Part shown: positions 9,201-54,352 of the stretch, piece by piece
Layout of the letters: each line of letters begins with the position of its first letter
Numbering within the stretch: position 1 is the first letter of the stretch
NCBI GenBank assembly: GCA_043806635.1
Contig: JAZDGT010000002.1
Span: 41,974 to 105,973, forward strand
Reading direction: 5' to 3'
Length of the DNA: 64,000 nucleotides
From: Methanobacteriota archaeon
Lineage (GTDB): Archaea > Thermoplasmatota > E2 > DHVEG-1
The notes under the pieces: model-generated
Told to the model about the DNA's origin: nothing
The model's database searches: none
Seen by the model: the letters and a program-made list of their open reading frames with translations, nothing else
Made by a program: the position numbers and the translations under genes

Positions 9201-9672
9201 AGTAAGTGGCTGCCCATGCGGCACACGACCCTTGTCCGCCCTGGTTACCTATTATTGGAAAACATGAATCAGCGGAGAGGTCGACGACAGACCGCAGTGG
9301 ATTTGGTGGAGGAAGCTCATCAACGATAATAAGAGACCCAACCATCTCGATATAGTCTGCTTCACTCGGTGGTGCGTACCCTGTTCCATGACCATCGTAG
9401 ATGATGTTATAGTTTTTTGCTGGGTCGTAAACCCCAGCCTGTTGTTTCAATGCTTCGATGTCTTCTTTTGTCGCAAGATGGGTGACTATACCGGTAAGAC
9501 TGTCATTTGTTTTTTGTTCGGCATAAGGTGTAGTTTCTTGTTTCATTGGTTGAGCAAAGGCTCCTAAGATGCAGGGTGCAATGCTTGTTCCAATGAACAG
9601 TAGGATGATTCCTAGAACTAGAAAATATTTTAACACATTGTTTTGCATGGTTTCGTATTCCTCCCTATTCAT
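4990..9672 (-). CDS. Giant secreted protein (1560 aa). Order: signal anchor, papain-like C1 cysteine peptidase, several Ig/beta-sandwich domains, DUF2341-like plus LamG (concanavalin-like) domains, then the shared C-terminal module.
   Basis: C1 triad motifs NQGGQGSCAAWA (Cys150), SINHANTVVGYDD (His295) and VANSWGYWG (Asn321). DUF2341-like WEYSKRITIDHTKVQADFTDFPVVI...ILYLYYGN. LamG-like VDFDGSNDYVQTS...ASAWVYVDG. C-terminal 416 aa homologous to the other modules. Confidence 0.85.
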   Translation of the reverse strand: MNREEYETMQNNVLKYFLVLGIILLFIGTSIAPCILGAFAQPMKQETTPYAEQKTNDSLTGIVTHLATKEDIEALKQQAGVYDPAKNYNIIYDGHGTGYAPPSEADYIEMVGSLIIVDELPPPNPLRSVVDLSADSCFPIIGNQGGQGSCAAWAATYYATGYVISKNYDWTQAHSGNSNQLLSPAWTYNKCNYGYDSGSVTWENMRVSQRVGTARLSTMPYNDGDPVGWGNENAWRDAPPYRVNQIYQVTKSLSVLKATLDAGYPITFALDADSYGYFGSDNVLGLNAMRYSINHANTVVGYDDTKVDAETGETGAFKVANSWGYWGPTGTGYYWMTYAALQGSWNTQPMNYVTALYTPGTHPTILGRWSLNPRPNRDASVTLGIGPHGAPLETRQPWWNGYSGSMHTYPSFMCLDISEFFNEWISGGDSFYLEIGDAAQDGTITSFKVEYYETIYTPGSPTRTSPESPDTPKNTPGYVTVQFGFIDYFKPQWQNQGQNRTTIQRGEPILLTSQGKDGISLNKAFLATNETGVWQNITSGMYGSPISYGGIQDQWVWSNFSWHTWAVPQGRRVGWRIYYNDTSGNWNRTNIMSFYVLRNPIIYDYTSLIASTGSSFTFNASVYDDDGIAAVYVDYWYEGGVHTNVSMMLTGGYYQRTITAAADKTLLYYIIHAKDNLNLWGHTAEKIVTIIDTLDPEIRNQGQSSSAIPPGGSVTLSAQSRDNIGLDFAYLSTNETGEWVDYATLNWWNFNWEYSKRITIDHTKVQADFTDFPVVITCTSSDFTNHAQPDGDDFVFVSQDNSTQYAHEIEYYYSPTGELTAWVKIPFLSSTTDTILYLYYGNPSCNNQEYVEETWSNGFIMVQHMSGASYTELDDSTANHWDITSSGGGPLFNQQGKIGKCVDFDGSNDYVQTSGFRIPADAAYTASAWVYVDGNNGQRRYLFEGDGDYSISLHVWTNESFKARTHTSTDIPVCYSDTHISTSNPQWYYTSTRLNPTTDLLEVMVNGLTEAGIYFTGTINPETIGLNIGTNMDNNAYWMNGKIDEIRIANVIRSDAWTRTEYIMMSQPSSFAIIGEETEGISAYGSPLNLNTEPGVWAWANFTWQNPGIPEGTRVGWKITFGDTSYNIVSTDIMSFMIGEMSLFEVRGYCTYPDMSPANIITVDISNLNTGGQWQADTNNNYYTQFLVPGDEIHAGDTLRIIARDNDNSVNVTNRLITTSDIAAGYVQLDLTLKVHYRDLKQFPFYLSQVNSGAMVMKQMLDYCMWNDTLFPEPQSVYNEQTLYNTYAGGNQMNVSELSGGLNAEIDDHGHGWIYGYFFAPSGHDLAVDALKSAVIWLDYNISGSNEHRLVDVPKEGHPYHVPIAVPTGGSYDHWMVIRGIHTNRSMWDTNVPGDHELINGPVTIYGFWVNDPVSGGVGNNVYVTYQYFNSTYFQKLNVPGDYYNNKFVVITDPPRDAPAVNTNSISLKVGTQSGFTLTEIKTLKTNVGSFVLGQQAIDFVNSVLSNDLTYGSLISGLRTVGKPMRTGNGYIITVGNTNMDITVKLGVDGAGQQFSVHLK

Positions 9673-46147: not shown

Positions 46148-47068
46148 ATGGACTACGAATTAGCAATTATTGGTGCAGGACCGGCAGGGTACTCCGCAGG
46201 GATTTATGCGGTTCGTTCTGGTATTACCACAGCTCTTTTTGATCGTGGTGATGGTGGAGGTCGAGCAGTGCTCTCCCCGAACATTGAAAACTATGCGGGG
46301 TTCGAATCTATTTCCGGTACTGAATTAATGGAGAAGATGAAACATCATGCGAGTAAATATGTGACGATGCATTTGTATGAGGAAGTAAAAACCATTAAAC
46401 CGATGGAAAACCTGTTTGCATTGCAGACAAGTAAAGGAAATTACAAGGTTGGGGCGATTCTCCTCAGCACAGGAACCGAGCATAAAACATTGGATATCCC
46501 TGGAGAGAAAGAGTTCCAGGGGAAAGGAGTCTCGTATTGTGCAACCTGTGATGGGTTTTTTTTCCGAGGGAAACCAGTGGCGGTGATTGGTGGTGGGAGT
46601 ACTGCGGTGATGGAGGCGTTGTTCTTGAAACAGATCGGGTGTTCTGAGGTGTTTCTGATTCATCGGCGGGATCAGCTTCGGGCTGAAAAAATTTATGAGA
46701 CTGAGGCTCGGGAGAAAAATGTTCAAATAGTGTTAAATAAAGAGGTTGAAAAGATTTCTGGGTTGGATGTTCTGCAGATGCTGCATCTGAAGGATATGGT
46801 GACAGGGAAACTATCGACGCTGAGGGTTAATGGCGTGTTTGTTTCTGTTGGGCATATCCCGCAGAATATGCTTGCTCAGCAGCTTCAAGTGGCTCTTGAT
46901 ACGGATGGGTATATTGTGGTTGATCGGATGCAGCGTACTAACATAAAAGGGGTGTATGCTGCGGGTGATATCACGGGTGGTGTGCGTCAGGTGATTACTG
47001 CGTGTGCGGAAGGAGCGGTTGCTGCTCTTTCGACGACGGAGTCGTTAGGGAAAAAATACCCATATTAA
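46148..47068 (+). CDS. trxB: Thioredoxin-disulfide reductase.
   Basis: IIGAGPAGYSAGIY, redox CATCDG, GGGSTAVMEA, YAAGDITG. Confidence 0.9.
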   Translation: MDYELAIIGAGPAGYSAGIYAVRSGITTALFDRGDGGGRAVLSPNIENYAGFESISGTELMEKMKHHASKYVTMHLYEEVKTIKPMENLFALQTSKGNYKVGAILLSTGTEHKTLDIPGEKEFQGKGVSYCATCDGFFFRGKPVAVIGGGSTAVMEALFLKQIGCSEVFLIHRRDQLRAEKIYETEAREKNVQIVLNKEVEKISGLDVLQMLHLKDMVTGKLSTLRVNGVFVSVGHIPQNMLAQQLQVALDTDGYIVVDRMQRTNIKGVYAAGDITGGVRQVITACAEGAVAALSTTESLGKKYPY

Positions 47069-47074
47069 TGGTTA

Positions 47075-47145
47075 TTGTGAGCGAGTCGTAAGCCTCTTTG
47101 CAACAGGAGAAAAAGACAAATTTTTATGAAAATTGAGGACAGAAG
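47075..47145 (+). repeat. Cassette-boundary repeat, copy A (degenerate core plus conserved extension of about 46 bp).
   Basis: TTGTGAGCGAGTCGTAAGCCTCTTT + GCAACAGGAGAAAAAGACAAATTTTTATGAAAATTGAGGACAGAAG. Begins 7 nt after the trxB stop. Confidence 0.8.
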
Positions 47146-47168
47146 AAACTTGTATATCGAAAGTTATA

Positions 47169-47203
47169 TATACCATGGTATACATAGGTATACTTAGGTG
47201 TAC
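47169..47203. promoter_or_regulatory. Candidate operator of the toxin-antitoxin pair: a 14-bp palindrome plus three GGT(A/G)TAC repeats at 10-bp spacing.
   Basis: TATACCATGGTATA at 47169..47182. GGTATAC at 47177 and 47187, and GGTGTAC at 47197, ending 1 nt before the ATG at 47205. Confidence 0.5.
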
Positions 47204-47204
47204 T

Positions 47205-47444
47205 ATGAGTACGACAACCATTAAAATCCAAAATGATACGACATCACAAATCGATCAATTTCGCGAATATAAAAACGAGAGCTATGACGAGGTTATCAAA
47301 AAGCTTATCTATATTGTAAAAAACTTAAAAAAAGAACCAGAAGTCAGTAAAGAAACCATCAAAGCTATTGAAGCAGCAAGAGAGCGCATTAAAAAAGGAC
47401 ATTTCGTCAGCGAAGAAGTGGCAAAACAACGTCTGGGGCTTTAA
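47205..47444 (+). CDS. Type II antitoxin (small DNA-binding protein, RHH/CopG-like by size and position).
   Basis: MSTTTIKIQNDTTSQIDQFREYKNESYDEVIKKLIYIV... lies 3 nt upstream of a RelE-like gene. The ORF track starts at 47133. Confidence 0.6.
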   Translation: MSTTTIKIQNDTTSQIDQFREYKNESYDEVIKKLIYIVKNLKKEPEVSKETIKAIEAARERIKKGHFVSEEVAKQRLGL

Positions 47445-47447
47445 TGA

Positions 47448-47702
47448 ATGTATACCGTTGAATACGATGAAGAAGCTTTACTAAACCTAGAAAAATTAGA
47501 GAAGAAAATTAGGAAAAGAATTTTTGAAAAAATTAGTTCAACAAAAGAAAATCCATTTCATTATTTTGAGCGATTAACAGCAAGAGAAGAGTATAAACTT
47601 AGAGTTGGAGATTATCGAGTTATTGCTGATATCGATGAAAAGACAAAAAAGATATCTATTCTTTTCATAGGTCATAGAAAAAATATTTACGAAAAAAATT
47701 AA
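47448..47702 (+). CDS. relE: RelE/ParE-family type II toxin.
   Basis: YTVEYDEEALLNLEKL...KKIRKRIFEKI...YKLRVGDYRVIADIDEKTKKISILFIGHRKNIY. Confidence 0.8.
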   Translation: MYTVEYDEEALLNLEKLEKKIRKRIFEKISSTKENPFHYFERLTAREEYKLRVGDYRVIADIDEKTKKISILFIGHRKNIYEKN

Positions 47703-47710
47703 TTTTTTAG

Positions 47711-47778
47711 GTGCTGGGTATAGGCCGTAAGCCTCTTTATAATTCCTGTAAAATAAGAAATTTTGAGATTTTAGAAGA
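47711..47778 (+). repeat. Cassette-boundary repeat, copy B.
   Basis: GTGCTGGGTATAGGCCGTAAGCCTCTTT, with one mismatch to copies C and D, followed by a diverged AT-rich extension ending TTTTAGAAGACG. Begins 8 nt after the relE stop. Confidence 0.8.
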
Positions 47779-47863
47779 CGTAATTTTCACGAAATAAATT
47801 ACTATTTTTTCAATAGGTTTTATAAATCATTACCTGATAACAACACAGATTGAGGAGAACAGG

Positions 47864-48385
47864 ATGACTGATATAATTCTTAAATTCAAATATACAGAAG
47901 ATGAATTTGTTAAAACAATGAAAAAATTAAATTATAAATTTTATAAATGGCAAATATTTTATTACATTTGCTTTATTATCATGGGATTAATAAATTGGCT
48001 TTTCTGGAACGAGACAACTTTGATTGTTATATGGATTAGTTTGGGTATTTTTGGATTATTCATATTTTCTTATGATTTTTATATACAACCTCGTAGATTC
48101 TTCCGAAAACATCCAAAATTACACGATGATTTTAATATCACTTTTACTGATGAAGGAATTGAAATAAAAACAAAACAGATTAATTTGATATTGGGATGGA
48201 ATAATTATAAAAAAGTTTTAGAAGATAAAAGTACATATATTCTTGTAAGGAGTTTACGTTCTAAAATAATCACTGAATTATTTCGCACTTTTATTCCTAA
48301 ACGCGTATTTGAAAATAGCCAACAAGAAGAAGATTTTAGAAAATTATTATCTGAAAAGGTTTCCAAGGATTTTAATAAAATTTAA
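47864..48385 (+). CDS. YcxB-like membrane protein (two TM helices plus a small beta domain).
   Basis: SD GAGGAG. WQIFYYICFIIMGLINWLFW and LIVIWISLGIFGLFIF. Very AT-rich. Confidence 0.5.
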   Translation: MTDIILKFKYTEDEFVKTMKKLNYKFYKWQIFYYICFIIMGLINWLFWNETTLIVIWISLGIFGLFIFSYDFYIQPRRFFRKHPKLHDDFNITFTDEGIEIKTKQINLILGWNNYKKVLEDKSTYILVRSLRSKIITELFRTFIPKRVFENSQQEEDFRKLLSEKVSKDFNKI

Positions 48386-48499
48386 ATTCATTGTCAACGT
48401 TGAGCATAAAACAAGATGTTCTAAGGGAATGTTGTAAAGTTAGGTGTTTCTGATTTAAAGATTATTCTTTGATATATAAAAGGTTGAAAGAAATAATTA

Positions 48500-48596
48500 T
48501 TACTTTTTTGCGGCTTTAAAATAATCTATAAGTCTTTGTATCACTTCTGAGTAAGTTTCTCCTTTTTCTGCTATCACAAAACTTCTACCTTTTAAT
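48500..48596 (-). pseudogene. 3' remnant of an antitoxin-like gene, truncated at repeat copy C.
   Basis: The reverse-strand reading ...LKGRSFVIAEKGETYSEVIQRLIDYFKAAKK* matches ...NESYDEVIKKLIYIVKNLKK of the 47205 antitoxin. No start codon occurs before the reading frame enters the repeat. Confidence 0.45.
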
Positions 48597-48671
48597 TGTG
48601 CTGGGTGTAGGCCGTAAGCCTCTTTGCAACAGGAGAAAAACACAATTTTTATAAAAATTGGAAGACAGAAG
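48596..48671 (+). repeat. Cassette-boundary repeat, copy C (full core plus extension).
   Basis: TTGTGCTGGGTGTAGGCCGTAAGCCTCTTT + GCAACAGGAGAAAAACACAATTTTTATAAAAATTGGAAGACAGAAG. The extension is about 90% identical to copy A. Confidence 0.85.
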
Positions 48672-48861
48672 ATCATGAAAACATTATTTTGGAAAGTAAT
48701 CGGGGCGGCGGAGTAAGCTATCAACCTTTTTCTCAATCCTGTTGAATTTGAACTTTAAAGCTTTAGAATATGTATTTTTTTCGTGAAAAACGTCTAATAT
48801 AGATAAAGATTTTAATAATGGAAAAATGATATAACATTATTGTTTGGTGGAGGTTAAAGAA

Positions 48862-49176
48862 ATGAAAATCAAGAAGTATGTCTTTAATTTAAGTAATGTT
48901 ATAGAGGAATTGAACTTACTCAAGAGGCATATAATTATTCTTAAAACTCTGCGAAAGAATGAACCTCTCGGGATCGTGAAATTATCCAGATTAACAAAAT
49001 ATCCGGGACATTTAGTACGATATTCTTTGAGCGAACTAGAAAAAAGAGGAATGATAAAACCATCTAGCAAGGGAGCTCTCACAACAGATTCTGTAGATAA
49101 TAATCTTGTTTTATTAGAAAAACAATTGAAAGAAATAAAAAAAGAAATTAACAAAGTAATGATGATCCTTAGATAA
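48862..49176 (+). CDS. Winged-helix transcriptional regulator (104 aa).
   Basis: SD GGTGGAGGT. LKRHIIILKTLRKNEPLGIVKLSRLTKYPGHLVRYSLSELEKRGMI. The ORF track starts at a TTG at 48844. Confidence 0.55.
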   Translation: MKIKKYVFNLSNVIEELNLLKRHIIILKTLRKNEPLGIVKLSRLTKYPGHLVRYSLSELEKRGMIKPSSKGALTTDSVDNNLVLLEKQLKEIKKEINKVMMILR

Positions 49177-49225
49177 GTTGTTTCATATTGCAGATCAGAT
49201 AATTTCTAAATTCAAATTTAAATAG

Positions 49226-49255
49226 TTGTGCTGGGTGTAGGCCGTAAGCCTCTTT
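49226..49255 (+). repeat. Cassette-boundary repeat, copy D (core only).
   Basis: TTGTGCTGGGTGTAGGCCGTAAGCCTCTTT, 30/30 identical to copy C. Confidence 0.85.
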
Positions 49256-49267
49256 CTGTTTCTTATT

Positions 49268-49708
49268 TTATAGGATTTTTATTCGCTTAAAATTTTTACT
49301 TTTAATGATTTGTATTAAGTTATCTCCACTATTTTTTACCGGACTTGTCAGTGGACCATGCATGGTTTTTGATTGAATTCCGATAAAAAATATTTTTTTT
49401 ACATATTGTTCCAGATATGATATGAGAATAGAAAGGGGAATCCCATGAGTGCTGATGTGCATGGTTCCTATTTTTTCTTTGGGGATGATTCGGATTTTAC
49501 CAGGGGGTAACTGCATTTCTGCGGCGTCAATGAGGAGGAGGGTGGTTGGTTTCTGTTGTTTCACAACGGAGGTATAGTTTTCTGGTGTTGTTCCGCAATC
49601 AATCGCAGAGATAGTGGAGTGTTTTTTATGTAAAGTGTCATAAATATAGGGGCCAACAGCATCGTCTCCGCCGTCTCGATTTCCGATGCAGAGGATTAGG
49701 AGGCTCAT
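49268..49708 (-). CDS. hycI: Hydrogenase maturation endopeptidase (HycI-like).
   Basis: LILCIGNRDGGDDAVGPYI...IDCGTTPENY...LLLIDAAEMQLPPGKIRII...STHGIPL parallels E. coli HycI throughout. Confidence 0.8.
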   Translation of the reverse strand: MSLLILCIGNRDGGDDAVGPYIYDTLHKKHSTISAIDCGTTPENYTSVVKQQKPTTLLLIDAAEMQLPPGKIRIIPKEKIGTMHISTHGIPLSILISYLEQYVKKIFFIGIQSKTMHGPLTSPVKNSGDNLIQIIKSKNFKRIKIL

Positions 49709-51937: not shown

Positions 51938-52011
51938 GCCGCCGTAGCTTAGCCCGGTAAAGCGGCTGATTCGTAATCAGCAGACCAGGGGTCCAAATCC
52001 CTTCGGCGGCT
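51938..52011 (+). tRNA. tRNA-Thr (anticodon CGU).
   Basis: Acceptor GCCGCCG/CGGCGGC. Anticodon stem GCTGA/TCAGC with loop TTCGTAA. T arm AGGGG-TCCAAAT-CCCTT. Discriminator T. Folded by eye. Confidence 0.85.
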
Positions 52012-52168
52012 CTGATAATAATTAGCACGGTTATTAAACAGAAAAAAACCAGAATAATTACAACGTCCATATGCTCAATCCTTCACCTTGATCAAAGCTA
52101 TGTATTATTGGGGACCTTATCATAAACATGTTATTAAAAATTGATTTTTACTTATAATCTTTCCTTCA

Positions 52169-54352
52169 CTAATTGTAGATGCCATTGTATGCATTTATAA
52201 TTTTATTTAAATCATATTTTTCAGGATCTAAACAATCATAACACCAAATAAAAAAACCATCTCCGTTTGATTCCATTGAACTTTTTATAGCATTCACAAT
52301 ATCATTATCTGTATTATTATATGGACCGTAGATTTTGATATTAGACACTATTTGACAGGATACTTTTTCCTTAGTTTTATTACAGATTCGCCCAGCAATA
52401 TTAAGATCACTAACATTATCTAATGCCACAAATGGAAAAATTGTATTCAAATTACTCTCTAATTTTGACATATCTTGAGCCATATTGTAAGCTCCATATT
52501 CTTCCGGAAGTAAAACTGAACCGATTTCCAAATTTGGATAAGACTGTTTAATATAATTTCTCCATTCTTTAATAAATTCTTCAATTTCATCGCTCCTCCA
52601 TTCCATCCACAAATCATATTTTTCCATTCCCTGTCTGAAAAATCTTGGAAATCCTAATGTTTTTGTTTCTAAAATGAATTTAAGGTTGCTTTGGAAACAA
52701 TAGCAGCAATCAGATAAAAAGCGTGGATCGTATAATATGATACCATTGACCATTGGATATTTTTCTAATAACTTATCAGACCAAGATATTGCCCAATCTC
52801 GACTTTTTTTGTTACTAAAACAAATTTCTCTTTCATCTATTTCCCCATTTCGATGGACCTGATGTGGTATATTATATCCATCTCCAGGCAGAGTTCTAGC
52901 TCTATACATTAACCATAGCGTTATGTTTCTTTGTTGTGTTTCATTTAGAAAATCAGCTACTTTTTCAAATTGAGTATTCTCCCATGACCAAGTAATCCAT
53001 CCAAAGTCAACGATCACATGATTTATGTTACATTCTTCAATAAATGTGAGTATTTCTGAAATCGATGATTCATCACCAATTATATCAGAACCTACAGCAA
53101 TACCACGGAATTTATCCTCAATCCTCTGATATTCACTAAGAGAATAGCTCATATTTTCAATATAACCTTCAAGATTTTTCACCTCAAAACAACCGATAGC
53201 AAGTTTCTGAGAATTTGTTGCATTTAGAAAATGATTTTTTTGTTTATCTGACATATTTCTATTAAGATAATCCTCATAGTAATCCCAAACTTTTTCTGTA
53301 ATGTTAAGTACCTTATCAATAGAAAATATATTTGAAGATAATTGAAATATTTCTTGTTCGCAAAATGACCAGTTAAAAGACCACGTTATATTAGCATTAG
53401 ATGTGCCCCAATAAGCAATCAAACCTCCTTCAGGATGATGCCCATTAATAATATTACTTGAAGTTTCATCACAAGGAAATGCAATAAATTGTATTGTATA
53501 GTTTTGATACCATTCTGGCATTCTTCCAATGTCTGATTCTAACCTAATCCAACCATATGGATGAGCATAATATTCGATAATATAATGAGTTGGATATACC
53601 ATCAGTACTCTTGCAGGTATACCATTAGCTCTTAGAAGAGCTGAAGCAAGATTTGCTGATCCCATACAATTACCGCCCTTAGTTCTAAGAGTTGTTAGCG
53701 CATCTTGATACCCTCCTCTGGATTCTAAAGGTCCTGTAAAATCAGCTACTTTTTCTGCGAGTTTTATAACATCGTTACTCATTCCTTTTAACATCTTAGC
53801 CCGTAGGTTAATTCTCCAATGATCAGATTGTATAAATTCAGAGGGCAACAACCATTTTTTAACATCGTTTGGTAAATCTTTTCTAGGTGTAACCCTAATG
53901 TTTTCAGGTAAATCGTCGAAGTTATTTTCTCTAACAACAACAGATATGGACCAAAAAAGCTTCAGAGTTTCTCCTTTAGTCATACCTAATAAATTAATCC
54001 TCAATAAAGAGTTTAAACTTGAATAATCATTAGCTATTCCAAATTCTGTTACTTTGTTGACAGGTTCAGTCCAAACATTATTTACGATTATAGGAGACTG
54101 ACTTTCACAGACTATTGGCATATGACAATATATTTGAAATGAGTCTACTGAATCAGAAGCAATTAAATCATAACATCCAGTAAGATTTTTTAAATAGATA
54201 TTTTTAATATCTAAAATATTGTTATAAATAGTGTTCATAATATTTGAAAAATTATCAGTTTTAATATTACTCGAAACTACGGGTAAAAGGAATGAAGTAA
54301 AGATCATGATGGTGATAATTGCTTTAGTATTCATTGCTAGATAATTAACCAT
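52169..54352 (-). CDS. Secreted or membrane-anchored transglutaminase-like cysteine protease-fold protein with a C-terminal TIM-barrel-like (glycosidase-like) region (727 aa).
   Basis: N-terminal helix AIITIMIFTSFLLPVVSS. Transglutaminase core GGNCMGSANLASALLRANGIPARV...AHPYGWIRLESD (Cys-His-Asp). The C-terminal half has alternating beta/alpha patterns. Very AT-rich. Confidence 0.6.
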   Translation of the reverse strand: MVNYLAMNTKAIITIMIFTSFLLPVVSSNIKTDNFSNIMNTIYNNILDIKNIYLKNLTGCYDLIASDSVDSFQIYCHMPIVCESQSPIIVNNVWTEPVNKVTEFGIANDYSSLNSLLRINLLGMTKGETLKLFWSISVVVRENNFDDLPENIRVTPRKDLPNDVKKWLLPSEFIQSDHWRINLRAKMLKGMSNDVIKLAEKVADFTGPLESRGGYQDALTTLRTKGGNCMGSANLASALLRANGIPARVLMVYPTHYIIEYYAHPYGWIRLESDIGRMPEWYQNYTIQFIAFPCDETSSNIINGHHPEGGLIAYWGTSNANITWSFNWSFCEQEIFQLSSNIFSIDKVLNITEKVWDYYEDYLNRNMSDKQKNHFLNATNSQKLAIGCFEVKNLEGYIENMSYSLSEYQRIEDKFRGIAVGSDIIGDESSISEILTFIEECNINHVIVDFGWITWSWENTQFEKVADFLNETQQRNITLWLMYRARTLPGDGYNIPHQVHRNGEIDEREICFSNKKSRDWAISWSDKLLEKYPMVNGIILYDPRFLSDCCYCFQSNLKFILETKTLGFPRFFRQGMEKYDLWMEWRSDEIEEFIKEWRNYIKQSYPNLEIGSVLLPEEYGAYNMAQDMSKLESNLNTIFPFVALDNVSDLNIAGRICNKTKEKVSCQIVSNIKIYGPYNNTDNDIVNAIKSSMESNGDGFFIWCYDCLDPEKYDLNKIINAYNGIYN

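What the first reader, a model, noticed from the sequence alone, without database searches (positions are those of the whole stretch)
47075..49255. Four copies of a novel repeat delimit small AT-rich gene cassettes between trxB and hycI (integron-like layout, no integrase seen)
**Seen in sequence.**
- The 30-mer TTGTGCTGGGTGTAGGCCGTAAGCCTCTTT occurs identically at 48596 and 49226.
- It occurs with one mismatch and a shortened 5' end at 47711.
- A degenerate copy lies at 47075.
- Copies A and C are followed by the same tail of about 46 bp (GCAACAGGAGAAAAA(G/C)ACAA..TTTTTAT.AAAATTG.A.GACAGAAG, about 90% identical). The tail contains a TATA-like TTTTTATA. Copy B has a diverged version.
- The core contains a small hairpin, AGGC-cgtaa-GCCT. 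In copy C, AATTGTG...CACAATT forms an outer inverted repeat.
- Each copy sits at the 3' side of a unit: trxB|A|antitoxin-relE|B|ycxB-like + antitoxin remnant|C|wHTH|D|(hycI, convergent).
- The enclosed genes are typical cassette cargo (a TA pair, a small membrane protein, a small regulator) and are visibly more AT-rich than the flanks.

**Inference.** The repeat may be a recombination site (attC-like) or a mobile promoter/terminator element that assembles cassettes. Integrons have been reported in Archaea, but this repeat does not fit the R''/R' (RYYYAAC/GTTRRRY) consensus and no integrase is present in the window. It may therefore be a different mechanism.
Basis: partly seen in the sequence, partly recalled or inferred. 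Interest (0 to 1): 0.8.

Follow-up and report, generated by a model that had tools for sequence, protein, structure and literature searches.

The report
RNase P gene-tail repeats flank cassettes
The repeated 30-mer copies the last bases of the RNase P RNA gene, which archaeal integrases use as a docking site; three small integrase-less cassettes have stacked at such a site between trxB and hycI, an integron-like collection system I found no description of.

Summary
Four same-strand copies share an exact 13-nt core (chance 0.06), and the interval is 25-30% GC against about 44% in the flanks.

The repeat (R) is the reverse complement of the last 23 nt of archaeal RNase P RNA (rnpB, RF00373) plus 5 nt. 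The window holds no rnpB.

In 167 public Thermoplasmatota loci I found 303 R copies:
- They are always co-oriented and always on the 3' side of rnpB.
- A second docking site lies just after the hycI stop codon, as in this window.
- Inter-R units have a median of about 860 bp and carry toxin-antitoxin, defence and varied other genes.

Related contigs differ by clean gain or loss at R. One relative (L083) has trxB, 9 nt, R, 8 nt, hycI and no cassette.

A XerA-like tyrosine integrase sits 50-140 nt before R in larger elements.

This is site-specific integration at an RNA-gene end, with integron-like accretion of integrase-less mini-cassettes. It is not an attC/IntI integron. No integrase is in the window, and mobilisation in trans is inferred. 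I rate it a new variant of a known kind.

The parts
46148..47068 (+). TrxB-like thioredoxin-disulfide reductase. This is the core-genome left flank of the array.
   Evidence: Pfam Pyr_redox_2, 2.3e-55. Homologues at 63-75% aa identity sit at the same position beside R in L058, L083, L094, L104 and L142.
47072..47099 (+). R copy A, the oldest and most distal copy. Its left half has decayed; the exact core CGTAAGCCTCTTT is at 47087-47099.
   Evidence: Alignment A3 shows a full R at this same position after the trxB stop in L104, L142 and L083.
47100..47149 (+). T1-type tail, read as the P' arm of the attachment site. It reads GCAACAGGAG, then an AT-rich stretch, then GGACAGAAG (47137-47145).
   Evidence: It matches the T1 consensus of 28 junctions. 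The GACAGAAG motif is the same one repeated between the integrase gene and R in L122 and L183.
47205..47444 (+). Cassette 1, DUF7557 antitoxin. A palindromic TATACCATGGTATAC lies upstream at about 47169-47183.
   Evidence: Pfam DUF7557, 2.7e-08. It is 77-92% aa identical in 10 or more species.
47448..47702 (+). Cassette 1, ParE/RelE-family toxin. Its stop codon lies 8 nt before R copy B.
   Evidence: Pfam ParE_toxin, 2.6e-10. The whole cassette, 47087-47738, is 73-89% nt identical to units in 24 or more other loci, with homology ending at the R cores.
47711..47738 (+). R copy B (28-mer, 1 mismatch).
47739..47786 (+). T2-type tail (P' arm). It reads ATAATTCCTG ... AGAAGACGTAA (47773-47783).
   Evidence: It matches the T2 consensus of 10 junctions. 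The GA(A/G)ACGTAA motif is repeated four times before R in the integrase-bearing elements L176, L118 and L117.
47864..48385 (+). Cassette 2, YcxB-like small membrane protein (24% GC).
   Evidence: Pfam YcxB, 2.1e-09. No homologue was found in the 178 related loci searched at that step (L001-L178).
48500..48592 (-). Cassette 2, inverted C-terminal remnant of a DUF7557 antitoxin that abuts R copy C.
   Evidence: Weak Pfam DUF7557 hit, residues 57-75 of the minus-strand ORF.
48596..48625 (+). R copy C (exact 30-mer).
48626..48671 (+). T1-type tail (P' arm), with GAAGACAGAAG at 48661-48671.
48862..49176 (+). Cassette 3, small winged-helix-like protein. The start codon is uncertain (48844 TTG or 48862 ATG).
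   Evidence: Pfam HTH_24 at 0.0029 and CggR_N at 0.0043, both below cut-off. No homologue in the 178 related loci searched at that step (L001-L178).
49226..49255 (+). R copy D (exact 30-mer). This is the platform copy, 12 nt from the hycI stop codon.
   Evidence: R sits in the same position, 3-12 nt after the hycI stop, in L058, L015, L017, L031 and L083; the same platform is also seen in L038, L045, L059, L094, L148 and L174.
49268..49708 (-). HycI hydrogenase maturation protease. This is the core-genome right flank and the secondary docking platform.
   Evidence: Pfam HycI, 2.8e-17.

Best explanation
**What R is.** The repeat (R, 28-30 nt) is the attachment-site core of a family of integrative elements found in sediment Thermoplasmatota. 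It is identical to the last 23 nt of the RNase P RNA gene, which form the CR-V/P4 3' strand and the P2/P1 3' strands, plus 5 nt beyond.

**How integration works.** A XerA-like tyrosine integrase is encoded by the larger elements as the last gene before R. It recombines an element-borne R with the chromosomal R at the 3' end of rnpB, or with a second chromosomal R just after the hycI stop codon. Because the two R sequences are identical, rnpB is regenerated, and each insertion leaves one more co-oriented R.

**How arrays form.** Repeated insertion at the platform builds an array: platform, R, cassette, R, cassette, and so on.

**The window.** Three integrase-less mini-cassettes lie between a decayed distal R (copy A, beside trxB) and an intact platform R (copy D, beside hycI):
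- a DUF7557/RelE toxin-antitoxin pair;
- a YcxB-like gene with an antitoxin remnant;
- a small wHTH gene.

**The tail.** The roughly 46-nt tail after each R is the P' arm of the attachment site. It carries one copy of the motif (GACAGAAG in type T1, GACGTAA in type T2) that is repeated 3-5 times, at 20-21-nt phasing, between the integrase gene and R.

**Shown:**
- the identity of R with the rnpB end;
- the polarity of the arrays;
- clean gain, loss and swapping of cassettes at R;
- an empty site in a relative;
- the integrase lying next to R.

**Inferred:**
- that this integrase catalyses the events;
- that it moves integrase-less cassettes in trans;
- that the phased repeats are its arm-type binding sites;
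- that the crossover lies around the AGGC-CGTAA-GCCT dyad.
For: **R is the rnpB 3' end**
- In 45 of the 303 R copies, R is followed by the reverse complement of rnpB. Every rnpB scanned with Rfam there scored 160-193 bits full length, or was cut only by a contig end.
- The Rfam alignment places R on model positions 266-288.
- The window itself has no rnpB.

**Array structure**
- 167 loci hold 303 R copies. 81 loci hold two or more, and none has mixed orientation.
- In 24 of 24 rnpB arrays, all extra copies lie on the 3' side.
- Across 136 inter-R units the median is 857 bp and the mode about 600-640 bp.
- Cargo comprises 129 protein clusters, 95 of them singletons. It includes ParE/DUF7557, AbiEi/Eii, Fic, PIN, TIR, Schlafen/AlbA_2, Mrr and Imm5-like.

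**Gain, loss and swapping at R**
- L010 has 3.9 kb more than L055, and L012 has 2.6 kb more than L039.
- L002 and L014, whose flanks are 92-97% identical, differ by cassette swaps.
- L031 and L045 are 95% identical only on the hycI side of R.

**Empty site**
- L083 reads trxB stop, 9 nt, R, 8 nt, hycI stop, with no cassette.

**Cassette mobility**
- The window's toxin-antitoxin cassette is 73-89% nt identical in 24 or more loci (77-92% aa in the protein comparison), in at least 5 different neighbour contexts.
- TrxB is only 63-75% aa identical and HycI 56-62% in the same comparisons.

**Integrase**
- Tyrosine recombinases with an intact R-K-H-R-H-Y set lie 50-140 nt before R and read toward it (L176, L122, L118, L091, L102, L047, L077). 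In L117 three small ORFs lie between the integrase gene and R.
- Pseudogene fragments lie in the same place in L014, L010 and L133.

**Reverse test**
Seven integrase homologues were chosen only by protein similarity and contig length:
- 4 lie 77-137 nt from an R that ends a full rnpB;
- 1 lies in an R-bounded island, 2.2 kb from rnpB;
- 1 lies beside an R that is not at rnpB;
- 1 (36% identity) has no R.

**Family and arm motif**
- The closest relatives are XerA (NCBIfam NF040815, 161 bits; PDB 5hxy, 162 bits).
- The arm motif occurs 2.46 times per 110 nt before R against 0.21 in background, with 20-21-nt spacing.
- L176, L118 and L117 (74-81% identical integrases) carry ACGTAA-type repeats; L122 and L183 carry ACAGAAG-type repeats; other loci mix the types. 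The same motifs form the conserved distal block of the T2 and T1 tails.
Against: - No integrase and no rnpB lie in the 64-kb window. Activity in this genome is therefore unproven.
- The window's cassettes lack the phased P-arm repeats. They keep only R and the P' arm, so their competence for recombination is assumed.
- No circular or excised form was found, and no virus carrying the integrase or R was found.
- R has only a 4-bp internal dyad. It does not look like a canonical 11-6-11 Xer site.
- How a perfect R came to lie beside hycI is unexplained.
- Most comparison sequences are metagenome contigs. Assembly across a 28-76-nt repeat could create some false joins.
- Shuffling by ordinary homologous recombination between R-plus-tail repeats cannot be excluded as a contributor.
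Confidence: 0.8

Rival explanations
1. No dedicated recombinase is involved. Cassettes are gained, lost and shuffled by general homologous recombination (RadA) between the 28-76-nt R-plus-tail repeats, after DNA uptake or between array copies. The integrases would then serve only the larger elements.
For: Each junction offers 28-80 nt of near-identical sequence. The window cassettes lack the P-arm repeats. Arrays are mosaics in which the P-arm type and the neighbouring tail type can disagree, for example in L122 and L159.
Against: Breakpoints fall exactly at R even where the tails differ (T1 against T2 against rnpB against hycI). That leaves only 28 nt of homology, which is short for efficient homologous recombination. 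Strict co-orientation, platform polarity and the integrase next to R fit site-specific recombination. The tail motif matches the integrase-side repeats.
Confidence: 0.1
2. It is a true integron. An IntI-type integrase elsewhere in the genome recombines folded single-stranded attC sites, of which R plus tail would be a divergent example.
For: Small cassettes, toxin-antitoxin cargo and no recombinase inside the array. On NCBIfam the family integrase is matched by the integron-integrase model TIGR02249, though far below its cut-off.
Against: Neither strand of any unit folds better than shuffles, and there is no bulged hairpin and no RYYYAAC/GTTRRRY boxes. Cassette genes lie in both orientations (184 same, 126 opposite). 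The platform is an RNA-gene end, not an attI beside intI. TIGR02249 scores 65 bits against a cut-off of 265, whereas XerA scores 161.
Confidence: 0.01
3. R is a generic intergenic element, such as a terminator, a REP-like repeat or a regulatory site, that happens to resemble the rnpB end. The genes between copies would not be mobile.
For: R contains a short GC hairpin followed by a T-rich run and sits at gene 3' ends. In the empty site L083 it lies between two convergent genes.
Against: Only 4 copies occur in 64 kb, all in this interval. Relatives have different genes between copies, or none. The cassette is far more conserved than the flanks. The hairpin is not significant.
Confidence: 0.03
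4. The copies act at the RNA level. Cassette transcripts that read through R carry 28 nt antisense to the catalytic-core strand of RNase P RNA, or minus-strand transcripts act as decoys of the RNase P 3' end. Either would modulate RNase P or cassette expression.
For: 184 of 310 cassette ORFs read toward R, and R often begins within 10 nt of their stop codon. The complementarity to RNase P RNA is perfect.
Against: No data here show such transcripts. 126 of 310 ORFs have the opposite orientation. This reading does not explain the polarity, the empty sites or the integrase adjacency. It could be a side effect rather than the cause of the repeats.
Confidence: 0.03

Closest known systems
Genomic islands and proviruses integrated at the 3' end of tRNA or tmRNA genes by tyrosine integrases (Islander-type islands, PMC4383910; tandem arrays at one tDNA)
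   Same: The attachment core equals the 3' part of a conserved structural-RNA gene. The gene is regenerated and its displaced end marks the far boundary. The integrase gene lies next to the attachment site. Successive insertions give co-oriented direct repeats and tandem arrays, all on the 3' side.
   Different: The target is the RNase P RNA gene, with a second copy of the site beside hycI. Nine searches of the paper library found no report of this target, and I know of none. Most units are 0.6-1.5-kb integrase-less cassettes rather than islands of several kb.
Integrons (IntI, attI, attC cassettes), including chromosomal super-integrons rich in toxin-antitoxin cassettes and the integrons reported in Archaea
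   Same: A fixed platform collects many small, highly diverse, horizontally shared cassettes that lack their own recombinase. Toxin-antitoxin pairs are the commonest cargo. Cassette sizes are similar (median about 860 bp).
   Different: There is no folded attC and there are no R boxes. The junction is a double-strand-type core identical to an RNA-gene end. The integrase is not at the platform. Cassettes carry their own upstream regions and lie in both orientations. The integrase groups with XerA, not IntI.
Xer/dif systems and elements that exploit them (archaeal XerA/dif; bacterial IMEXs; pdif modules of Acinetobacter plasmids)
   Same: The integrase's closest relatives are XerA (PDB 5hxy and 4a8e). 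The core site is about 28 nt. Small modules without a recombinase are bounded by copies of the site.
   Different: The recombinase is element-encoded, carries a C-terminal extension of about 70 aa, and is accompanied by phased arm repeats. R lacks the 11-6-11 inverted-arm layout. All sites are co-oriented, not alternating as in pdif modules. The site is not a chromosome dimer-resolution site.
Cis-mobilisable elements and satellites lacking an integrase (CIMEs flanked by att sites next to ICEs; integrase-less satellites)
   Same: Units bounded by att sites have lost, or never had, recombination genes. They sit in tandem with integrase-bearing elements at the same att site.
   Different: The units here are much smaller and far more numerous and diverse. 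One discrete unit (the 639-652-bp toxin-antitoxin cassette) recurs across many species.
Lambda-type attP with arm-type integrase binding sites
   Same: Direct repeats of a short motif flank the core on both sides: several on the integrase side and one on the other.
   Different: No N-terminal arm-binding domain is detectable. The extra domain is C-terminal. Binding has not been tested.

Membership tests
Integron | attC sites that fold as imperfect single-stranded hairpins with R''/L''-L'/R' boxes (RYYYAAC...GTTRRRY) | tested here: not met
   Both strands of all four window units were folded with DNA parameters. Scores ran from z -1.1 to +0.9 against shuffles, and only a 4-bp stem appeared. No R boxes are present in the consensus.
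Integron | An IntI integrase gene with adjacent attI at the head of the array | tested here: not met
   The platform ends are rnpB or hycI. No recombinase was found among 10 mid-size window ORFs or among the conserved rnpB neighbours. The family integrase scores 65 bits on TIGR02249 (cut-off 265) against 161 bits on XerA.
Integron | An array of small, diverse, mostly single-gene cassettes in one orientation | tested here: inconclusive
   Small and diverse: yes. The median is 857 bp, and 129 clusters come from 310 ORFs. One orientation: no, with 184 the same and 126 opposite.
Integrative elements targeting the 3' end of a structural-RNA gene (tDNA-island type) | The attachment core is identical to the 3' part of the RNA gene, and the gene stays intact after insertion | tested here: met
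   R corresponds to RF00373 positions 266-288 plus 5 nt. rnpB copies next to arrays score 160-193 bits over the full model.
Integrative elements targeting the 3' end of a structural-RNA gene (tDNA-island type) | A tyrosine integrase is encoded next to the attachment site | tested here: met
   Met in related loci: 8 full or contig-truncated genes and 3 fragments lie between a distal R and the proximal R, most of them 50-140 nt before it. Four of 7 unbiased homologues lie next to R plus rnpB. Not met in the window itself, which holds only integrase-less units.
Integrative elements targeting the 3' end of a structural-RNA gene (tDNA-island type) | Co-oriented direct repeats bound the inserted DNA, and presence/absence polymorphism is precise at the repeat | tested here: met
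   None of 81 multi-copy loci has mixed orientation. Indels and swaps at R were found, and L083 is an empty site.
Integrative elements targeting the 3' end of a structural-RNA gene (tDNA-island type) | The target is a tRNA or tmRNA gene | tested here: not met
   The target is rnpB, with a second site after hycI. The only tRNA in the window (Thr, 51938-52012) has no repeated 3' end.
Xer/dif-exploiting modules (IMEX, pdif modules) | A 28-bp site with two roughly 11-bp inverted arms around a 6-bp spacer | tested here: not met
   Reading the sequence shows only the inner AGGC/GCCT (4 bp) is symmetric around CGTAA.
Xer/dif-exploiting modules (IMEX, pdif modules) | Recombination is done by the host's own chromosome-resolution Xer enzyme | not testable with these tools
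   The element-borne integrase is a XerA paralogue. Whether host XerA acts on R needs biochemistry.
Heterobivalent (lambda-type) integrase/attP | Arm-type sites flank the core and are bound by a separate integrase domain | tested here: inconclusive
   Phased repeats are 12-fold enriched before R, and one copy lies in the tail. Pfam finds only the SAM-like and catalytic domains, plus an unassigned C-terminal region of about 70 aa. Binding was not tested.

The most novel reading that the evidence does not exclude
Sediment Thermoplasmatota carry a functional analogue of the integron that arose independently. A XerA-derived integrase uses the invariant end of the RNase P RNA gene, and a copy of it beside hycI, as fixed platforms. 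At these platforms it inserts, excises and reshuffles hundreds of kinds of integrase-less mini-cassettes in trans. These cassettes carry toxin-antitoxin, defence and surface-protein genes. Each cassette needs only R and a half attachment arm.
Probability: 0.5. Interest if true: 0.8.

Novelty: new variant of a known kind. Interest (0 to 1): 0.72.

Why it matters
**A new kind of integration target.** RNase P RNA would join tRNA and tmRNA genes as a conserved, essential RNA-gene end that mobile elements use as a landing pad. The 18-mer used as the search probe (TAGGCCGTAAGCCTCTTT) recurs exactly in MAGs assigned to dozens of different species, which explains the broad sharing of cassettes.

**A route to integron-like gene stockpiling.** The system shows how integron-like collection of small cassettes can arise from an ordinary Xer-type recombinase without folded attC sites.

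**Practical uses.**
- R is a simple sequence tag for finding the flexible gene pool (toxin-antitoxin and defence genes) in uncultured sediment archaea.
- The integrase, with its 28-nt site, is a candidate tool for site-specific insertion in archaea.

**Annotation.** Pipelines that see stray fragments of the rnpB 3' end should read them as island boundaries.

Tried and rejected
- **attC-like folding.** I folded all four units on both strands with DNA parameters. None beat the shuffles.
- **Rfam on the interval.** An E-value search up to 10 detected no RNase P fragment, because R is too short for the model, and gave only a chance snoRNA hit. The identity of R came from related loci instead.
- **Tail as cassette promoter.** The tail holds a TATA-like run. 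However, downstream ORFs mostly start 20-80 nt further on and have their own AT-rich upstream regions. The tail is also retained where a divergent gene follows, as in L176. I rejected this as the main role.
- **Exact-protein look-ups.** The window's TrxB, HycI, RelE and YcxB are not on record, so the source genome could not be extended.
- **Viral collection.** It holds neither the 18-mer nor a relative of the integrase.
- **Circular forms.** No contig has terminal overlaps.
- **A regex integrase hit in L100.** It is a GC-rich bacterial IS91-like locus that matches the 18-mer by chance. I used it only as a seed for jackhmmer.
- **L091.** I first read it as a partial R that would narrow the crossover region. 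It is a full R split by a 46-nt insertion.
- **"Half-R" junctions.** I first took them for a gene C-terminus (...YGLHPA), but the reading frames are short and broken. No Rfam family matches.
- **Copy A as a hybrid with a chromosomal pseudo-site.** I rejected this because relatives have a full R at that position.
- **Gradient of R decay away from the platform.** It is only weak: 0.7, 1.6 and 1.9 mismatches at ranks 0, 1 and 2.

Full report
**1. Checking the observation**

- The 30-mer is exact at 48596 and 49226. At 47709 it has three mismatches, or one mismatch over the 28-mer from 47711. No shuffle gave any match.
- A 13-nt core, CGTAAGCCTCTTT, occurs exactly four times, all on the + strand (47087, 47726, 48613, 49243). 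Chance gives 0.06 copies, and there are no other copies in the 64 kb.
- The tails after copies A and C are 85% identical over 60 nt, and B has another tail.
- GC drops from about 44% to 24-32% between 47050 and 49300.
- Pfam confirms TrxB-like, DUF7557 plus ParE/RelE, YcxB, an inverted DUF7557 remnant, a weak wHTH, and HycI.
The small hairpin and the outer inverted repeat exist, but they carry no folding signal.

**2. What the repeat is**

I scanned one genome per species for the 18-mer TAGGCCGTAAGCCTCTTT.
- The scan gave 58 loci, nearly all from Thermoplasmatota MAGs and often with 2-3 copies. Viral contigs gave none.
- In about a third of the matches the repeat runs straight into a long conserved sequence.
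- Rfam identifies that sequence as the reverse complement of a full archaeal RNase P RNA gene, scoring 168-174 bits.
- The Rfam alignment places the repeat (R) on model positions 266-288. These cover part of the conserved ACAGAA...GGCUUAC segment and the terminal helix strands. Five further bases lie beyond the model.
- The window contains no rnpB, so its four copies are orphan rnpB ends.

**3. Anatomy across relatives**

The combined picture is as follows.
- 167 loci hold 303 R copies. 81 loci hold two or more, up to six, and none has mixed orientation.
- In 24 of 24 arrays anchored on rnpB, every extra copy lies on the 3' side of the gene.
- The 136 inter-R units have a median of 857 bp and a mode of 600-640 bp.
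- Their 310 ORFs fall into 129 clusters, 95 of them singletons.
- Cargo includes ParE/DUF7557, AbiEi/AbiEii, Fic/DOC, PIN, TIR, Schlafen-AlbA_2, Mrr, Imm5-like, nucleotidyltransferases, beta-helix and LamG surface proteins, and some metabolic genes.

Each R inside an array is followed by a conserved tail of about 50 nt. There are a few tail types:

| Type | Sequence | Where in the window |
|---|---|---|
| T1 | gCAACAGGAGAAaAaca, AT-rich stretch, aGACAGAAgaAac | copies A and C |
| T2 | ATcaCTCCTgtAAAac ... TTTTGAAgaCGtAA | copy B |
| T3 | rarer | not in the window |

**4. A second platform at hycI**

- R lies 3-12 nt after the hycI stop codon in the window. The same holds in L058, L015, L017, L031 and L083; the same platform is also seen in L038, L045, L059, L094, L148 and L174.
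- One MAG has both platforms: L012 at rnpB, and L024 with L031 at hycI.
- L058 keeps the trxB-array-hycI layout but with unrelated cassettes.
- L083, whose TrxB is 75% identical to the window's, reads trxB stop, 9 nt, R, 8 nt, hycI stop, with no cassette. This is an empty site.
- L104 and L142 have a full or near-full R plus T1 tail right after trxB. This shows that window copy A is a decayed R.

**5. Evidence that R is a recombination junction and the cassettes move**

Pairwise comparisons give clean differences bounded by R:
- L010 has 3.9 kb between the rnpB R and a cassette that abuts rnpB directly in L055.
- L012 has 2.6 kb that L039 lacks.
- L002 and L014, with 92-97% identical flanks, carry different cassettes in corresponding slots.
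- L031 and L045 are 95% identical from R into hycI and unrelated on the other side.

The window's toxin-antitoxin cassette also looks mobile:
- It recurs over exactly 47087-47738, from core to core, at 73-89% nt identity in 24 or more loci (77-92% aa in the protein comparison).
- The unit that follows it varies: rnpB six times, T1 or T3 five times, T2 three times, others seven times.
- TrxB and HycI are only 56-75% identical in the same comparisons.

The YcxB and wHTH cassettes have no counterpart in the 178 loci searched at that step (L001-L178).

**6. The recombinase**

- No integrase lies among the bigger cassette ORFs first tested, among conserved rnpB neighbours, or in the window.
- A Pfam census of 98 cassette representatives showed one Phage_integrase member.
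- A jackhmmer search then found a family of tyrosine recombinases. Each is the last large gene of a 4-13.5-kb unit and reads toward R. In L176, L122, L118, L091, L102, L047 and L077 the gene ends 50-140 nt before R; in L117 three small ORFs lie between it and R. Truncated remnants sit at the same place in L014, L010 and L133.
- The catalytic R, K, H, R, H and Y residues are conserved.
- The closest families are archaeal XerA (NF040815, 161 bits, below its 220 cut-off) and then XerD and XerC.
- The closest structures are XerA of Thermoplasma acidophilum (5hxy) and of Pyrococcus abyssi (4a8e).
- A C-terminal region of about 70 residues has no Pfam match.
- At least 90 protein clusters belong to the family. 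One comes from Thermoplasmatales archaeon SCGC AB-540-F20.

I ran a reverse test on seven homologues picked only by similarity and contig length.

| Homologue | Finding |
|---|---|
| P0037, P0034, P0044, P0059 | 77-137 nt from an R that ends a full rnpB (160-193 bits) |
| P0032 | in an R-bounded island, 2.2 kb from rnpB |
| P0049 | beside an R that faces a second, convergent integrase |
| P0085 (36% identity) | no R |

**7. The arms of the site**

- Between the integrase stop and R lie 3-5 direct repeats of a short motif, spaced 20-21 nt apart. The last repeat abuts R.
  - L176, L118 and L117 have GAGAACGTAA.
  - L122 and L183 have GAAGACAGAAG.
  - Others have GACATAAG.
- The motif class occurs 2.46 times per 110 nt there, against 0.21 in background.
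- The same motifs form the conserved distal block of the T2 and T1 tails.
- Many integrase-less junctions also keep the last repeat (...ACATAAG or ...ACGTAAG) just left of R. The window's junctions do not.

**8. Mechanism**

Shown:
- R equals the rnpB end.
- Arrays are polar and co-oriented.
- Insertions, deletions and swaps break exactly at R.
- An empty site exists.
- An intact Xer-like integrase with phased flanking repeats sits next to R.

Inferred:
- The integrase exchanges strands within R, perhaps around the AGGC-CGTAA-GCCT dyad.
- Each insertion at the platform regenerates rnpB and adds one R.
- Mini-cassettes that carry only R plus the P' arm are moved in trans.
- The repeats are arm-type binding sites, possibly read by the C-terminal extension.

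For the window, this means that three cassettes totalling 2.16 kb were inserted at the R between trxB and hycI. The toxin-antitoxin cassette is the oldest and outermost.

**9. Comparison with known systems**

- The logic matches tRNA- and tmRNA-gene islands (PMC4383910), but the target is new. Nine literature searches found no report of rnpB as an attachment site or of such arrays. The one paper containing all the search terms was irrelevant.
- The system behaves like an integron in what it collects. It fails the defining integron features: folded attC, IntI with attI, and a single cassette orientation.
- It resembles Xer-exploiting modules in enzyme ancestry and site length, but not in site symmetry or site orientation.

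**10. Caveats**

- The window has neither the integrase nor rnpB.
- Most comparators are metagenome contigs.
- I found no circular intermediates and no viral carriers.
- The origin of the hycI-side R is unexplained.
- Homologous recombination between the repeats may contribute to shuffling.

**Verdict**

The feature is an attachment-site array built on copies of the rnpB 3' end. I rate it a new variant of a known kind and of clear interest.

Noticed in passing
L002 1142, L056 7260, L069 4536, L076 862, L081 1459, L089 909, L149 5163, L154 1081, L155 2657 and 5198, L168 957: A recurrent "half-R" junction. The first 21-23 nt of R (GTGCTGGGTGTAGGCCGTAAG) are joined to a different conserved segment of about 60 nt, in two subtypes. 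Each subtype has a small hairpin, for example TCGTCT-AAT-AGACGA or GAACC-GG-GTTC. The reading frames through it are short and broken, and no Rfam family matches. It may be another attachment-site variant or a small RNA.
   Followed up: partly
L091 13520-13612: The rnpB next to a 13.5-kb integrase-bearing element carries a 46-nt insertion inside R, between GTGCTGGGTG and TAGGCC. The insertion holds a GC-rich hairpin (CCCCTCCGTAAGGAGGGG). I did not assess whether this RNase P RNA is functional.
   Followed up: no
L180 8001-10417 (also L181): Two tyrosine integrase genes converge on a single R copy (4 mismatches, at 9231) that is not at rnpB. This could be back-to-back elements or an element carrying two recombinases.
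   Followed up: no
window 51938-54352: A tRNA-Thr(CGT) gene at 51938-52012 is followed by an AT-rich gene (31% GC, 727 aa) on the minus strand with a transglutaminase-like core. No repeat of the tRNA 3' end occurs in the window, so there is no evidence of a tRNA-targeted island.
   Followed up: partly
window 47160-47200: Upstream of the toxin-antitoxin operon lies a TATA-like AAAGTTATATATA, followed by the perfect palindrome TATACCATGGTATA and tandem GTATAC-TAGGT repeats. This is a likely autoregulatory operator. It is conserved in the same cassette in L014, L024, L052 and others.
   Followed up: no
integrase alignment A2, columns about 300-380 (L176 residues about 280-349): The R-associated integrases share a C-terminal extension of about 70 aa that XerA lacks. 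It contains a conserved L-x-Q-x-L-A-x-G-x-I-T-x-E motif and has no Pfam match. It is a candidate reader of the phased arm repeats.
   Followed up: no
L013 (WJKY01000019.1): One array-type R with a T1 tail lies in a MAG labelled Candidatus Woesearchaeota. This is either a binning error or evidence that the cassettes reach beyond Thermoplasmatota.
   Followed up: no
window 500-21373: Four very large minus-strand ORFs (1308-2503 aa) begin with signal-peptide-like N-termini. I did not examine them.
   Followed up: no
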